In this document: positions 5,399 through 23,199 of the stretch, piece after piece
How the letters are laid out: each line of letters starts with the position of its first letter
Numbering within the stretch: position 1 is the first letter of the stretch
Source of the DNA: Acholeplasma brassicae
GTDB lineage: Bacteria > Bacillota_I > Bacilli_A > Acholeplasmatales > UBA5453
NCBI RefSeq assembly: GCF_000967915.1
Contig: NC_022549.1
Location: forward strand, 708,366-732,365
Reading direction: 5' to 3'
Length of the DNA: 24,000 nt
Made by a program: the position numbers and the translations under genes
The notes under the pieces: model-generated
The model's database searches: none
Told to the model about the DNA's origin: nothing
The model's input: only the letters and a program-made list of their open reading frames with translations

Positions 5399-7216
5399 AT
5401 GAAAACAGTAATAATAGTAGAATCACCATCAAAATCAAAGACCATCGCTAACTACGTCGGTAACGATACCGTCGTTTTAGCAACCGTTGGTCATATCAGA
5501 GAATTAGCTACCTCAGGTACCTATGGTTTGGGTATAGATCTTGCAAATGATTTTAAACCTAATTATAAAGTATCTAAAGGCAAGGAAAAAGTAATCAAAG
5601 AATTAATCAAGCAAACTCAAAAGAGTAACGTCTTGATTGCAACCGACCCGGACCGTGAAGGTGAAGCAATCGCGTGGCACGTCGCAGACATTTTGAATTT
5701 AGACTTGGATCAAGATAACCGTATCACCTTTAACGAAGTAACAAAAGAGGCGGTTTTAAAGGCAGTAAGCGAGCCAAGAAAGATTGATCGCGACCTAGTC
5801 CATTCTCAAGAAGCAAGACGCATCTTAGACCGAATTATTGGTTTTAGACTTTCCAAGCTTTTACAACAAAAAATAGGTTCTAAATCCGCAGGGCGTGTTC
5901 AAAGCGTTGCCCTTAAAATGATCGTAGACCTAGAAAAAGAAATTCTTGCCTTTGTGCCACAAGAATATCACTTACTACATGCGAACTTTGATACGTTTAT
6001 CGCTGACTACTCACAAAATTCGAGTAAGTCAGTCAAAACGGAAATTGAAGCTCAAGCAATCATTAATAAGCTTCAAGGGCCATTTAGAGTAAAAGACATA
6101 CAAACCAAAAAACTCACACGCGCCTCGAACCCAGCCTACGTTACCTCGACACTACAACAAGACGGGATTAATAAACTTGGCTACAGTGGGTCACGTGTGA
6201 TGGGTATTGCACAAGGCCTGTATGAAGGTAAAGAAATCAAAGACGAAACCGTTGGTTTGATTACCTACATGAGAACAGACTCAACAAGACTATCGGATGA
6301 GTTTATCAAAGATGCATTCGGTGAAATCGCACGTTTGTATGGTAAAGAATACATTGGTAAACCAAAAGTTGGTAAGAAAAAAGCAAATCAACAAGACGCT
6401 CATGAAGCGATCAGACCAACCTCAATTAAACGCACACCAGAATTAATGAAACCGTATTTAACCGATCAAGAGTATAAAGTGTATAAACTGATTTATGAAC
6501 GAGCACTCTTCTCGCTAATGGCGGATGCGATTTATGAAGTGACGTCGGTTGAGCTAGAAAATCACGATGAAATATTCAAAGCGTCGGCATCAAAACTTGT
6601 CTTTGAAGGTCATCACAAGGCGAACAAAAACTATGAACCGGCCAAACAAACCCTACCAAAACTGGCCATTGGTGATGAATTAAATGCAACTGAAATCACT
6701 TCAGTTCAACAATTTACCAAACCAAAATCAAGGTATACAGAAGCAAGCCTAATTAAAGATTTAGAAGAACTCGGTGTTGGACGACCTTCAACTTACGCGG
6801 AAATCAATAAAACACTATTGGCACGCCAATACGTTGAAAAAACAAAAGGATCACTCATTCCGACAGAACAAGGCATCATTACATCCGAGGCACTTGATAA
6901 ATATTTCTCGTCAATTATTAACACAGAATATACGCAATTCATGGAAAATGAGTTAGATGAAATCTCGGTAGGGAAAAAAGTTTGGAACGTTGAATTAATG
7001 GACTTTTACAAACGTTTTGAGCCAATATTAGAAGAAGCATTTAAAGATATGGTTAAACTGCCACCAAAAGAAGTCGGCGAACTTTGTCCAAATTGTTTTC
7101 GATCACTGGTCATTAGAAACAATAAAAAAGGCCAAGCATTCATTGCATGTTCCGGGTTTACTCAAAAACCACAATGTACTTACACAAGAAGCATTGAAGA
7201 AAAGAAACCAGAATAA
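5399..7216 (+). CDS. topA: DNA topoisomerase I (type IA), short form with a single C-terminal zinc ribbon
   Basis: TOPRIM N-terminus VIIVESPSKSKTI and DPDREGEAIAWH. Active-site Tyr context ITYMRTDS. C-terminal CPNC...CSG...C zinc ribbon. Confidence 0.95.
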   Translation: MKTVIIVESPSKSKTIANYVGNDTVVLATVGHIRELATSGTYGLGIDLANDFKPNYKVSKGKEKVIKELIKQTQKSNVLIATDPDREGEAIAWHVADILNLDLDQDNRITFNEVTKEAVLKAVSEPRKIDRDLVHSQEARRILDRIIGFRLSKLLQQKIGSKSAGRVQSVALKMIVDLEKEILAFVPQEYHLLHANFDTFIADYSQNSSKSVKTEIEAQAIINKLQGPFRVKDIQTKKLTRASNPAYVTSTLQQDGINKLGYSGSRVMGIAQGLYEGKEIKDETVGLITYMRTDSTRLSDEFIKDAFGEIARLYGKEYIGKPKVGKKKANQQDAHEAIRPTSIKRTPELMKPYLTDQEYKVYKLIYERALFSLMADAIYEVTSVELENHDEIFKASASKLVFEGHHKANKNYEPAKQTLPKLAIGDELNATEITSVQQFTKPKSRYTEASLIKDLEELGVGRPSTYAEINKTLLARQYVEKTKGSLIPTEQGIITSEALDKYFSSIINTEYTQFMENELDEISVGKKVWNVELMDFYKRFEPILEEAFKDMVKLPPKEVGELCPNCFRSLVIRNNKKGQAFIACSGFTQKPQCTYTRSIEEKKPE

Positions 7217-7222
7217 ACTAGG

Positions 7223-7251
7223 AAAATCAGCTAAAAACAGCTGATTTTTTT
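7223..7251 (+). terminator. Rho-independent terminator of topA
   Basis: Stem atcagct (7226-7232) / agctgat (7239-7245), a 6-nt loop, and a T-tract running to 7251. Confidence 0.8.
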
Positions 7252-7311
7252 AATACATGGCACCTCAAAAAATGCCTCAACTTTAGAAAACTAAAAAACA
7301 CGATAAAACGC

Positions 7312-7340
7312 TTTACAAACGCTTACAAACGTGATAATAT
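7312..7340 (+). promoter_or_regulatory. Putative promoter of the orphan intergenic transcript
   Basis: -35 TTTACA (7312-7317), a 17-bp spacer, then extended -10 TGaTAATAT (7332-7340). The -35 is part of a tandem repeat TTACAAACG x2 (7313-7321 and 7323-7331). Confidence 0.5.
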
Positions 7341-7346
7341 AATAAT

Positions 7347-7452
7347 GCATCCGACAAAGGGTGCTACTTATCCCCTATTAAGTGTGAACTGATAACTCAC
7401 ACAATCCCCTTAATTATCCCCCGACTTTTACCCTCGGGGGAGATTTTTTTTT
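7347..7452 (+). ncRNA. Candidate C-rich small RNA (RsaE/RoxS-like architecture), about 106 nt
   Basis: No SD-led ORF. Hairpin 1 at 7347-7364 (gcatcc/gggtgc). Hairpin 2 at 7382-7402 (gtgtga/tcacac). Terminator stem tcccccga (7417-7424) / tcggggga (7434-7441) followed by T9 (7444-7452). Three AUCCCC motifs at 7370-7375, 7404-7409 and 7416-7422, plus ACCC in the terminator loop. Confidence 0.55.
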
Positions 7453-7604
7453 ATTTAAGCTAAATTTAACAAGTCGACGTTTGATCAAATACAGTTCAAC
7501 CAAATAAACTAAGTGCGTATCGTTTTTTATTTTAGCTGTAATTACATATAATAGTTTTGGAGGCATACTCAAAAAAAAACAAAAATGAGTATGAATAAAA
7601 ATCT

Positions 7605-8099
7605 ATGACAAAAACAATGAAAAATAATCCTATCGAGGTCATCGGAACGGTATTAAACGTTGGCGATAAGGCAAGCGACTTCACCTGTGTTGACCGTAGT
7701 TTAAACAAAGTATCACTTTCTGATTTTAATTCCAAGTACGTATTAATCAACGTCGTACCATCACTTGATACGGGTGTTTGTGACATGCAAACAAGACAAA
7801 TCAACGAAAAATTAGCTGATTTGAAAGACACAACCGTTTTAACAATTTCAAATGACTTACCTTTTGCCCAAGCCAGATGGTGTGGTGCCGCAGGTTTAGA
7901 TAATATCCTCACATTAAGTGATTATCAAACGCTTGATTTTGCGAACAAGTATGGTGTAAACATCGTTGGATTACGTTTACTTGCACGCTCAGTGTTTGTA
8001 TTAAATGAACAAAGAGAAGTCATCTATGTGGAGTATTTAAATGAAATGACGAATCACCCGAATTACAGCCAATTATTTGACTTTATCGAAACCCTATAA
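7605..8099 (+). CDS. tpx: Thiol peroxidase (atypical 2-Cys peroxiredoxin Tpx)
   Basis: Peroxidatic Cys box VVPSLDTGVCDMQ and resolving Cys box AQARWCGAAG. The 164-aa length matches Tpx. The start has no adjacent SD, so the ATG at 7617 is an alternative. Confidence 0.9.
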   Translation: MTKTMKNNPIEVIGTVLNVGDKASDFTCVDRSLNKVSLSDFNSKYVLINVVPSLDTGVCDMQTRQINEKLADLKDTTVLTISNDLPFAQARWCGAAGLDNILTLSDYQTLDFANKYGVNIVGLRLLARSVFVLNEQREVIYVEYLNEMTNHPNYSQLFDFIETL

Positions 8100-10885: not shown

Positions 10886-10969
10886 TTAAAAAAACACAGG
10901 TAATTACAGCCAAAATAAATGAGATTTGTCTCAAATTATGGTAAAATAAACCTAACTTAGGGGGTACTT

Positions 10970-15050: not shown

Positions 15051-15383
15051 ATGCCAATTTATCGTACCGCAGAAAATGCGAAAGACCCAAAAATCGTTAC
15101 AAGATGGTATCAAAGTGATTACAAAGAAGTAAGTAACGCCGTCTTATCCGTAACGAAACAATTTGGATTTAACCTGCTTCACCAAGACGACCAGTTCGGT
15201 GAATTCATTTTAGAGAAAAAACAAGCAACACTTGATGTTAAAATCATATCGATGAATCGTAGAGAAACAGCGGTTGATTTTACACTAAATGTGGCAAATA
15301 TTTTCGATTTTGGTCGATCTAAGACAATGATTTTTGAGATGTATCAACGTCTCGGAAAAATGTTAACTGAAAAGAAACGATAG
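15051..15383 (+). CDS. Hypothetical 110-aa cytoplasmic protein
   Basis: Clean ORF with SD AGGAGTG (15035-15041). Tightly packed between coaE (4-nt gap) and dnaB (8-nt gap). I recognise no motif, TM segment or signal peptide. Confidence 0.6.
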   Translation: MPIYRTAENAKDPKIVTRWYQSDYKEVSNAVLSVTKQFGFNLLHQDDQFGEFILEKKQATLDVKIISMNRRETAVDFTLNVANIFDFGRSKTMIFEMYQRLGKMLTEKKR

Positions 15384-17448: not shown

Positions 17449-17660
17449 TGAAATGTGATGATTAGGACATGATTATGATTAATCAAAAGCGATGTAGAAT
17501 GGTGAAAGCTACAAACAATCAATAATTACTCCCTATGAGCAAGCTGTGAAAACAGAAGTCGTATGTCTGCGTTAAAGGCATTTGAGCGCTAGTCTTTTGA
17601 CTAGAACTAAGGTGGTACCGCGATATTTTCGTCCTTAACTTTGTTAAGGGCTTTTTTTAT
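17449..17660 (+). promoter_or_regulatory. T-box riboswitch leader (threonyl-tRNA responsive)
   Basis: Canonical T-box sequence aactaaGGTGGTACCGCG (17605-17622), preceded by Stem III ctagtc/gactag. Stem I distal loop aaTGGTGAAAg, a GA (K-turn-like) motif gtgatga, and candidate specifier ACU (17528-17530). Terminator stem gtccttaa (17631-17638) / ttaagggc (17644-17651) followed by T7. Confidence 0.9.
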
Positions 17661-17682
17661 TTTTAATAGGAGGATATAACAC

Positions 17683-23122: not shown

Positions 23123-23199
23123 GTATAATGAGTATAGATGCGAATCGGCTATGTTATTCTATTAGTGTCTATTAAAGGTTCGTAAAGAGGGGGTAAAAA

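What the first reader, a model, noticed from the sequence alone, without database searches (positions are those of the whole stretch)
7312..7452. Orphan promoter-to-terminator unit encoding a C-rich sRNA candidate (RsaE/RoxS-like) between topA and tpx
The 388-bp topA-tpx gap contains a complete transcription unit that belongs to neither gene. topA ends at its own terminator (7223-7251), and tpx has its own -10 box (7547-7552). The unit has a -35 TTTACA, a 17-bp spacer and a TGn-extended -10. Then come two short hairpins (7347-7364 and 7382-7402) and a strong terminator (8-bp G/C stem plus T9). No Shine-Dalgarno-led ORF is present. Three copies of AUCCCC (7370-7375, 7404-7409, 7416-7422) lie in the single-stranded linkers or the 5' arm of the terminator, and ACCC sits in the terminator loop. 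Multiple exposed C-rich regions plus a terminator is the defining layout of RsaE/RoxS in Bacillales. Those sRNAs pair with G-rich Shine-Dalgarno sequences and are controlled by the redox regulators SrrAB/ResDE and Rex. The second motif, AAUCCCCUU, resembles the RsaE UCCCCUUUG box as I remember it. Adjacency to the peroxiredoxin gene tpx fits a redox theme. The terminator loop UUUUACCC (7426-7433) is perfectly complementary to GGGUAAAA (23191-23198), which spans the SD and spacer of the response-regulator gene in this window. An 8-mer match could be chance. If this lineage lies outside Bacillales, the element would be undescribed there.
Basis: partly seen in the sequence, partly recalled or inferred. 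Interest (0 to 1): 0.7.

Follow-up and report, generated by a model that had tools for sequence, protein, structure and literature searches.

The report
Conserved C-rich small RNA after topA
The gap after the topoisomerase I gene holds a real, strongly conserved gene for a ~105-nt non-coding RNA found across Acholeplasma-type bacteria; it exposes two cytosine-rich stretches that probably pair with ribosome-binding sites, so it resembles RsaE/RoxS of Bacillus and Staphylococcus but is a separate family with no match in Rfam and no mention found in the searchable literature.

Summary
There is a sigma-70 promoter (TTTACA-17-TGaTAATAT, 7312-7340), three hairpins and a U9 terminator. All three + strand ATCCCC copies in the 24 kb fall within 52 nt and are unpaired or in the terminator's 5' arm.

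The host is an Acholeplasmatales-like Bacillota, not Bacillales. The unit is a genuine RNA gene:
- I recovered over 40 homologues, including Acholeplasma laidlawii, A. hippikon, Alteracholeplasma palmae and an Anaeroplasmataceae MAG.
- 26 of 28 informative metagenome copies sit directly 3' of topA, while the downstream gene varies.
- The three helices are 94.6% paired, and 16 of 21 pairs show compensatory changes.
- The two C-rich linkers are invariant in homologues found through proteins.
- Promoter plus RNA is more conserved than the flanking coding sequence.
- A published A. laidlawii 5'-end dataset has a start site on the first base of the orthologue.

It is not an RsaE family member. No Rfam hit appeared even at E<=10. 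The CCCCUUUGUU duplication is absent, and so are a Rex box and any conserved upstream site. The tpx/redox link and the terminator-loop pairing are not conserved.

Best reading: a new family of C-rich, anti-Shine-Dalgarno trans-acting sRNA. Targets remain unproven. Window candidates are thrS, polA and a response regulator.

The parts
7223..7251 (+). Hairpin plus T-run at the end of topA (AAAATCAGCT..AGCTGATTTTTTT). It is a terminator-like element separate from the sRNA unit and is absent in most relatives.
   Evidence: In A. laidlawii the sRNA -35 box starts 34 nt after the topA stop with no hairpin between them.
7312..7340 (+). Sigma-70 promoter: -35 TTTACA (7312-7317), 17-nt spacer, TG-extended -10 TGaTAATAT (7332-7340).
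   Evidence: CTTTACA-17-(TGn)TAnAAT is kept in all homologues. The orthologous promoter fires in A. laidlawii.
7347..7452 (+). Predicted sRNA transcript of about 100-106 nt, from G7347 to the end of the U-tract.
   Evidence: The start is inferred from the published A. laidlawii TSS, which maps to the orthologous G of GCAUCC, 7 nt after the -10 box. The covariance model scores it 90.7 bits.
7347..7364 (+). Hairpin 1 (GCAUCC / GGGUGC).
   Evidence: Six pairs, 99.5% paired across 32 sequences, 4 pairs with double changes.
7365..7381 (+). Single-stranded C-rich motif 1, UACUUAUCCCCUAUUAA (CCCC at 7372-7375); proposed seed.
   Evidence: Unpaired in all folds. CUACUUAUCCCCUAUU is invariant in the homologues retrieved through proteins: A. 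palmae, A. hippikon, A. laidlawii, the Anaeroplasmataceae MAG, L016 and L019.
7382..7402 (+). Hairpin 2 (GUGUGA / UCACAC).
   Evidence: 93.8% paired; the inner pairs covary (GUGUAC/GUACAC, GUGUAU/AUACAC, GUGCAU/AUGCAC).
7403..7416 (+). Single-stranded C-rich motif 2, AAUCCCCUUAAUUA (CCCC at 7406-7409); second proposed seed. It contains CCCCUU, the complement of the AAGGGG target motif reported for RsaE.
   Evidence: Unpaired. AAUCCCCUU is invariant in the protein-retrieved homologues. The RsaE motif is from PMC6158497.
7417..7452 (+). Intrinsic terminator: stem UCCCCCGA/UCGGGGGA (7417-7424 / 7434-7441), loop CUUUUACCC, then U9 (7444-7452). The third C-run lies in the 5' arm.
   Evidence: All 10 model pairs show double changes across the family. 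The loop ACCC and the C5 arm are clade-specific.
17663..17676 (+). Candidate target: thrS ribosome-binding region UUAAUAGGAGGAUA, which can pair with motif 1 over 13 bp with one bulged A. Prediction only.
   Evidence: Best of the 160 sRNA-versus-start-region duplexes computed (-15.2 kcal/mol). It lies downstream of a T-box leader at 17449-17639.
10958..10966 (+). Candidate target: polA SD UAGGGGGUA, which can pair 9 bp (one G.U) with motif 1. Prediction only.
   Evidence: GGGG is present in the polA SD of 4 of 7 genomes compared, the window included.
23188..23198 (+). Candidate target: response-regulator SD AGGGGGUAAAA. It can pair 9 bp with motif 1, or 8-10 bp with the non-conserved terminator loop. 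Prediction only.

Best explanation
This is a stand-alone gene for a ~105-nt trans-acting regulatory RNA, a new family confined so far to Acholeplasmataceae and one Anaeroplasmataceae MAG.

A strong housekeeping-type promoter starts transcription at G7347, and an intrinsic terminator ends it at the U-tract near 7452. The RNA folds into two short hairpins plus the terminator hairpin. These act as scaffolds that hold two near-duplicate C-rich segments single-stranded: UUAUCCCCUAUU and AAUCCCCUU(U)AAU.

The segments most likely serve as seeds that base-pair with G-rich Shine-Dalgarno regions (AGGGG, or GGAGG with a bulged A) of a small set of mRNAs. Pairing would block 30S binding and/or expose the mRNA to RNases. 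That is the mechanism shown experimentally for RsaE/RoxS and other C-rich sRNAs of Bacillota.

Shown here: the gene, its structure, its selection, and promoter activity in a relative. Inferred: termination at the hairpin, the anti-SD mechanism, and every individual target.
For: Gene and conservation:
- Homologues lie in the same position in protein-anchored loci.
- A synteny-blind metagenome pattern scan gave 33 hits, 31 of them genuine.
- The covariance model finds one copy per locus at 80-114 bits.
- 26 of 28 informative metagenome copies sit directly 3' of topA on the same strand.

Structure:
- On a MAFFT alignment of 32 distinct sequences, 94.6% of cells are paired, against 32-48% when the partners are slid.
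- 16 of 21 pairs carry double changes, and 0 of 500 shuffles reach the observed values.

Selection:
- Promoter plus RNA is 95% and 89% identical to two relatives. The adjacent topA and tpx coding DNA is 80-81% and 65-68% identical, and the flanking spacers about 50%.
- The C-rich linkers are invariant and unpaired, while the stems covary.

Expression:
- Supplementary Table 1 of Fisunov et al. 2016 lists a + strand start site at 352882 in A. laidlawii PG-8A, with coverage 31/21 in control and 43/26 after heat shock.
- With one offset that places six neighbouring published start sites on purines 6-7 nt after TATAAT boxes, this site falls on the G of GCAUCC of the orthologue. A separate start site for the next gene lies 149 nt further on.

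Non-coding: there is no SD or ORF, and loop lengths vary out of frame.

Mechanistic plausibility:
- CCCC is very rare in this genome.
- GGGG-containing SDs occur in only 13 of 197 called genes.
- The only two GGGGG runs outside the sRNA in the window are the SDs of polA and the response regulator.
- RsaE/RoxS act through single-stranded CCCC motifs on SDs (PMC4409812, PMC6158497).
Against: - No target has been demonstrated. Predictions rest on 21 genes in the window and short flanks elsewhere, and duplex energies of -13 to -15 kcal/mol are not decisive.
- The 3' end and the size of the transcript have not been measured.
- The A. laidlawii authors assigned the start site to the downstream gene ACL_0340.
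- A 16-nt invariant stretch is longer than an SD seed needs. It could reflect a protein-binding site or one long conserved partner.
- The motif invariance in the 31 metagenome members was imposed by the search pattern. Only the roughly 7 protein-retrieved genomes are an unbiased sample.
Confidence: 0.65

Rival explanations
1. It is a true evolutionary orthologue of RsaE/RoxS, diverged beyond the reach of the Rfam model. It would then share that RNA's role in redox and central-metabolism control.
For: - Size is about 100 nt, and several unpaired C-runs precede a terminator.
- Motif 2 contains CCCCUU(U), which is 6-7 nt of the RsaE repeat CCCCUUUGUU and the complement of the RsaE target motif AAGGGG.
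- The two motifs form a loose duplication.
- In the short variant (L001, L002, L013, L020), one CCCC sits in a hairpin loop and one in the linker before the terminator.
- Acholeplasmatales branch within class Bacilli.
Against: - There is no RsaE hit at E<=10 in the window or in six relatives. The same kind of search recovered a sub-threshold T-box in the window.
- There is no CCCCUUUGUU, no Rex-like operator, and no conserved element upstream of -35.
- The linkage is to topA, a synteny of its own; the Bacillales rsaE locus was not compared here.
- Short C-rich anti-SD motifs are expected to arise convergently in AT-rich Bacillota.
Confidence: 0.12
2. The C-rich segments bind a protein or another G-rich RNA rather than mRNA start regions. 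The RNA would then act as a sponge or decoy, for example one that mimics the 16S rRNA anti-SD sequence.
For: - The 16-nt invariance of CUACUUAUCCCCUAUU exceeds a typical SD seed.
- Some members carry AUCCUCC in the terminator arm, which resembles the 16S anti-SD.
- No conserved neighbouring gene shows complementarity.
Against: No protein partner or G-rich partner RNA is known or predicted. The arrangement of two exposed seeds between scaffold hairpins is the classical base-pairing sRNA design. Candidate SD partners do exist.
Confidence: 0.13
3. It has no function of its own. It is the 3' UTR and terminator of topA, or a 5' leader or attenuator of tpx or whichever gene lies downstream.
For: - In most relatives topA has no separate terminator, so topA transcripts must end at this hairpin.
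- The A. laidlawii start site was tagged to the downstream gene.
Against: - It has its own conserved promoter with a mapped start site.
- The downstream gene varies: tpx, ftsY, peptidase U32, ABC transporter, Flg_new protein.
- The downstream gene has its own promoter and start site.
- The unpaired motifs are conserved far beyond what a terminator needs, while the terminator sequence itself is free to vary.
- No alternative antiterminator pairing is evident in the folds.
Confidence: 0.06
4. It encodes a very small protein.
For: An ATG overlaps the start of hairpin 1 (7345-7347) and would open a 15-codon frame.
Against: - The mapped start site is the G of that ATG, so the codon is not in the RNA.
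- There is no SD.
- The ATG is GTG, TTG, TCG or ATA in relatives, and loop-length changes break the frame.
Confidence: 0.01

Closest known systems
RsaE / RoxS (Rfam RF01820; Staphylococcaceae and Bacillaceae)
   Same: It is a stand-alone RNA of about 100 nt with its own promoter and an intrinsic terminator. Several unpaired C-rich regions are arranged between hairpins. There are two related seeds. CCCCUU is the complement of the AAGGGG SD-like motif (PMC6158497, PMC4409812). The host is an AT-rich member of class Bacilli.
   Different: The Rfam model gives no match. The seeds are AUCCCCUAUU and AUCCCCUU(U)AAU, not the duplicated CCCCUUUGUU. No ResD/SrrA-type or Rex-type site is conserved. The gene is tied to the 3' end of topA. 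The host is Acholeplasmatales, a lineage I know to lack a TCA cycle and cytochromes, so the RsaE regulon logic need not apply.
Other C-rich sRNAs of Bacillota: the S. aureus Rsa class with UCCC motifs, and B. subtilis FsrA and CsfG
   Same: They use the same principle: C-runs in single-stranded regions or loops that pair with G-rich SDs (Durand et al. 2015, PMC4409812).
   Different: There is no sequence or structure match to any Rfam family. Those RNAs are genus- or family-specific. This one has its own architecture and its own phylogenetic range.
6C RNA of Actinobacteria and the csRNAs of Streptococcus (named from my own knowledge; neither was specifically tested here)
   Same: Both are widely conserved small RNAs whose conserved C-rich or anti-SD stretches are presented by hairpins and target G-rich mRNA sites.
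   Different: In 6C the C-runs are in hairpin loops, and csRNAs are CiaR-dependent. The phyla or orders, sequences and synteny all differ. Neither was reported among the Rfam matches.

Membership tests
RsaE/RoxS (RF01820) | Significant match to the family covariance model | tested here: not met
   cmscan against Rfam 15 found nothing at gathering scores in the window. It gave no RsaE hit at E<=10 on 7200-7620 or on six relatives' loci. The same kind of search recovered a sub-threshold T-box at 84.5 bits, so sensitivity was adequate.
RsaE/RoxS (RF01820) | Duplicated 10-nt seed CCCCUUUGUU (CRR1 and CRR3) | tested here: not met
   The best match in the RNA is CCCCTTAATT, with 2 mismatches. The family consensus motifs are AUCCCCUAUU and AUCCCCUU(U)AAU. 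The feature definition comes from PMC4409812.
RsaE/RoxS (RF01820) | RNA of about 100 nt with several unpaired C-rich regions and a Rho-independent terminator | tested here: met
   The C-runs are unpaired or in the terminator 5' arm.
RsaE/RoxS (RF01820) | Promoter controlled by ResD/SrrA (conserved box near -65) and Rex | tested here: inconclusive
   No position upstream of -36 is conserved in 34 aligned promoters, though 8 of them were anchored a few nt off. There is no Rex-like TTGTGAA-N4-TTCACAA near the promoter. The ResD box sequence itself was not available to test. Whether the lineage encodes ResDE or Rex was not examined.
RsaE/RoxS (RF01820) | Conserved chromosomal context shared by rsaE and roxS | not tested
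   Here the context is topA-sRNA-(tpx)-ftsY-ylxM-ffh. The Bacillales context could not be fetched for comparison.
C-rich anti-SD trans-acting sRNAs of Bacillota (functional class) | Independent transcription unit: own promoter with a mapped 5' end, and own terminator | tested here: met
   The promoter is conserved. The published A. laidlawii start site maps to the first base of the orthologue. The terminator hairpin with U-tract covaries. The 3' end has not been measured.
C-rich anti-SD trans-acting sRNAs of Bacillota (functional class) | Direct pairing of the C-rich seeds with SD regions, repressing translation or changing mRNA stability | not testable with these tools
   Only in-silico candidates are available: thrS, polA and the response regulator. 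polA SDs carry GGGG in 4 of 7 genomes compared, the window included.
cis-regulatory leader (riboswitch or attenuator) of the downstream gene | Constant association with one downstream gene family and no intervening promoter | tested here: not met
   The downstream gene varies. The downstream genes have their own promoters and start site.

The most novel reading that the evidence does not exclude
The RNA is the Acholeplasmatales branch of an ancient RsaE/RoxS-type riboregulator lineage, or an independently evolved master regulator. Its fixed position behind topA would be functional: topA read-through and the RNA's own promoter together would set its level, coupling DNA-topology status to translation of a G-rich-SD regulon that includes DNA-metabolism genes such as polA.
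Probability: 0.12. Interest if true: 0.75.

Novelty: new member of a known kind. Interest (0 to 1): 0.55.

Why it matters
To my knowledge, almost no conserved trans-acting regulatory RNAs are known for Acholeplasma and its relatives, the wall-less, genome-reduced branch of Bacilli that leads towards phytoplasmas and mycoplasmas. This work defines one with a seed alignment, a covariance model, a mapped 5' end in a cultivable species (A. laidlawii PG-8A) and two invariant seed motifs, so genetic and biochemical tests can start at once.

It also shows that the design of C-rich seeds presented between hairpins extends beyond Bacillales. That sharpens the question of whether such RNAs share ancestry or arise repeatedly in AT-rich genomes.

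In practice, the family could be submitted to Rfam, and it explains a start site that a published study assigned to a neighbouring gene.

Tried and rejected
- Rfam at gathering and at E<=10, on the window and on relatives, gave only chance-level hits to terminator-like parts of unrelated families (STnc50, IS128, anti-hemB, CrcZ). I rejected these.
- Rex-box and RsaE-repeat searches returned only background.
- A search of the window for a long complement of either motif found nothing except the motifs themselves.
- Full-length duplex prediction gave unrealistically long hybrids and was discarded in favour of seed-only duplexes.
- I tested the idea that conserved neighbours (topA, tpx, ftsY, ylxM, ffh, rnhB, ylqF) are the targets. 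Their SDs almost never contain GGGG (0-1 per orthologue group) and show no conserved complementarity.
- I tested a link to a two-component system. In L038 the RNA follows an OmpR-type regulator and kinase, but that regulator is only 34% identical to the window's, so no orthology can be claimed.
- The short variant (L001, L002, L013, L020) scores only 19 bits with the model. I treat it as a probable, not proven, homologue on the basis of position, promoter, the GUGUGU/ACACAC stem and the AUCCCCU linker.
- Looking for A. laidlawii through Tpx failed. topA worked.
- Two metagenome pattern hits (L042, L049) were chance matches.
- The pattern is absent from viral contigs.
- Literature searches combining RsaE with Mollicutes, Acholeplasma or Tenericutes, and Acholeplasma with sRNA, found no description.

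Full report
**1. What is in the sequence**

- Promoter: a -35 TTTACA (7312-7317), a 17-nt spacer and a TG-extended -10, TGaTAATAT, ending at 7340.
- Fold: the RNA from 7347 to 7452 folds into GCAUCC/GGGUGC (7347-7364), GUGUGA/UCACAC (7382-7402) and an 8-bp G/C stem (7417-7424/7434-7441), followed by nine U. Energy is -30.9 kcal/mol, z = -4.9, and no shuffle folds as well.
- C-rich motifs: ATCCCC occurs on the + strand only three times in 24 kb, all within these 52 nt. CCCC occurs at only seven + strand sites in total.
- The promoter scan by itself is no better than chance (3 hits against 3.4 expected in shuffles). The case therefore has to rest on comparative and experimental evidence.

**2. 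Whose genome this is**

The gene content is ftsK, lepB, ylqF, rnhB, topA, tpx, ftsY, ylxM, ffh, polA, fpg, coaE, dnaB/dnaI, thrS. The best topA relatives are 58% identical and come from Acholeplasma MAGs. This places the window in an Acholeplasmatales-like lineage of class Bacilli, not in Bacillales. Two metagenome contigs (L031, L035) come from the same species.

**3. The unit is conserved**

Loci fetched through topA or Tpx, which is blind to the RNA, show the same unit in the same place.
- Three close relatives carry it (L016-L019; Tpx 76-86% identical).
- So do Alteracholeplasma palmae J233, Acholeplasma hippikon, A. laidlawii and one Anaeroplasmataceae MAG.
- In all of these the stretches CUACUUAUCCCCUAUU and AAUCCCCUU are identical, even though topA proteins are only about 50% identical.
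- Against L016 and L019, promoter plus RNA is 95% and 89% identical. The adjacent coding DNA is 80-81% and 65-68% identical, and the flanking spacers about 50%.

A shorter variant occupies the same slot in four other genomes (L001, L002, L013 and Paracholeplasma vituli). It has the same promoter, a GUGUGU/ACACAC hairpin with ACCCCG in its loop, an AUCCCCU linker and a CCCCCC terminator arm.

A synteny-blind scan of metagenome contigs with ACTTATCCCCTATT-N(10-40)-ATCCCCTT returned 33 loci, 31 of them genuine.
- In 26 of the 28 with enough flank, the RNA lies immediately 3' of topA on the same strand.
- The gene after it is usually tpx. It is ftsY in L004 and L045, peptidase U32 genes in A. hippikon and others, and ABC-transporter or Flg_new genes in A. 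laidlawii.
- So the conserved partner is topA, not tpx.
- The unit was not found next to topA in Anaeroplasma-type MAGs, a phytoplasma or an Erysipelotrichia MAG.

**4. Structure**

A MAFFT alignment of 32 distinct members gives the same three helices with RNAalifold.
- On that alignment, which was not fitted to the structure, 94.6% of cells form standard pairs. The figure drops to 32-48% when partners are slid by 1-3 columns.
- 16 of 21 pairs have changes on both sides, and no shuffle out of 500 reaches any of the five measures.
- All ten terminator pairs covary.
- A covariance model built from the alignment finds one copy per locus at 80-114 bits (55 bits for the expanded Anaeroplasmataceae version), and no second copy in the window.
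- One caution applies. The motif invariance among metagenome members was imposed by the search pattern, so only the protein-retrieved set is an unbiased witness for it.

**5. Expression**

Fisunov et al. 2016 (PMC5138195) mapped 5' ends in A. laidlawii PG-8A. Their Supplementary Table 1 lists + strand start sites at 346547, 350996, 352882, 353031, 355679 and 357257.
- An A. laidlawii contig (L062) carries the RNA at 6857-6955.
- A single offset of 346025 puts all six published sites on purines 6-7 nt downstream of TATAAT boxes in L062. The -10 match score peaks sharply there, at 35 against about 21 elsewhere.
- Under that mapping, 352882 is the G of GCAUCC, the first base of hairpin 1. Coverage is 31/21 in controls and 43/26 after heat shock.
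- 350996 is the topA start site, and 353031 is a separate start site for the next gene.
- The authors tagged 352882 to that next gene (ACL_0340).
- By homology the window's RNA starts at G7347, 7 nt after the -10 box.
- This shows the promoter fires in a relative. It does not show where the transcript ends.

**6. What it is not**

- Not coding. The only ATG is cut by the start site, it is not conserved, and loop-length changes break any frame.
- Not a leader of tpx. The downstream gene varies and has its own promoter.
- Not merely the topA terminator. The terminator sequence is free to vary, whereas the unpaired linkers are frozen.
- Not a member of any Rfam family. There was nothing at gathering thresholds and no RsaE hit at E<=10, either in the window or in six relatives. 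The same kind of search did recover a real but sub-threshold T-box upstream of thrS (84.5 bits).
- The RsaE/RoxS hallmark, a duplicated CCCCUUUGUU (PMC4409812), is absent.
- No Rex-like operator lies near the promoter.
- Nothing upstream of the -35 box is conserved across 34 promoters.

**7. How it probably works**

The design is two short scaffold hairpins and a terminator holding two near-duplicate C-rich segments single-stranded. That is the design of RsaE/RoxS and other C-rich sRNAs of Bacillota, which pair with G-rich Shine-Dalgarno sequences and block initiation or trigger RNase attack (PMC4409812, PMC6158497). Motif 2 contains CCCCUU, the exact complement of the AAGGGG motif enriched in RsaE targets.

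In these AT-rich genomes GGGG-type SDs are a small minority, 13 of 197 called genes. That would give such an RNA a restricted regulon.

Within the window, the only two GGGGG runs outside the RNA are the SDs of polA (UAGGGGGUA) and of an OmpR-type response regulator (AGGGGGUAA). Each can form 9 bp with UUAUCCCCUA. The thrS start region UUAAUAGGAGGAUA can form 13 bp with one bulged A. It is the best of the 160 seed-versus-start-region duplexes computed across all loci. polA SDs carry GGGG in 4 of 7 genomes compared, the window included.

These are leads only. The conserved neighbours topA, tpx, ftsY, ylxM, ffh, rnhB and ylqF show no complementarity.

**8. Comparison and novelty**

Functionally the closest known system is RsaE/RoxS. 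By the tests available it is not a member of that family but a separate family of the same kind.

I found no description in Rfam 15 or in the searchable literature. I rate it a new member of a known kind: a well-supported new sRNA family in a lineage where, to my knowledge, very few are known.

A distant common origin with RsaE remains possible but unsupported (about 0.12).

**9. Verdict**

- Confidence that this is a real, conserved, expressed RNA gene is about 0.9.
- Confidence in the anti-SD mechanism is about 0.6.

Noticed in passing
window 7561-7604 (also L016 2955-3000, L019 690-729): In the tpx 5' UTR the SD GGAGG lies about 40 nt before the ATG at 7605. A hairpin, CATACTCA/TGAGTATG, lies between them. 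The same layout with compensatory stems (CATACC/GGGTATG, CATACTT/AAGTATG) occurs in the two closest relatives, whereas more distant relatives have normal SD spacing. It may be a hairpin that brings the SD and the start codon together.
   Followed up: partly
window 17449-17639: A T-box leader lies upstream of thrS. It scores 84.5 bits (E = 4e-19), just under Rfam's gathering score of 93, so the default search missed it.
   Followed up: partly
window 7311-7331: The sRNA promoter contains a direct repeat, CTTTACAAACG followed by CTTACAAACG, spanning the -35 box and spacer. It is kept in the window's clade (L016-L019) but not in the wider family. It might be a clade-specific regulator site.
   Followed up: partly
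window 10960-10964 and 23189-23193: The only two GGGGG runs outside the sRNA in 24 kb are both Shine-Dalgarno sequences, of polA and of an OmpR-type response regulator. Each has the form AGGGGGUA.
   Followed up: partly
L038 1154-3510: In one metagenome member the sRNA is not behind topA. It follows an OmpR-type response regulator and a histidine kinase, then about 680 nt with no long ORF. The kinase SD is CAAGGGGAC. The regulator is only 34% identical to the window's.
   Followed up: partly
L043 3558-4575: A second exception to the topA linkage: here the sRNA follows a class II fructose-bisphosphate aldolase gene and a pfkB-family kinase gene.
   Followed up: no
L004 8094-8240: The Anaeroplasmataceae version is about 35 nt longer. 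It has an extra hairpin between the two motifs and another hairpin with a CCCCCC loop before a short C-rich terminator. tpx is absent, and ftsY follows directly.
   Followed up: partly
window 15051-15383: A 110-aa ORF between coaE and the dnaB-like gene has no Pfam match.
   Followed up: no
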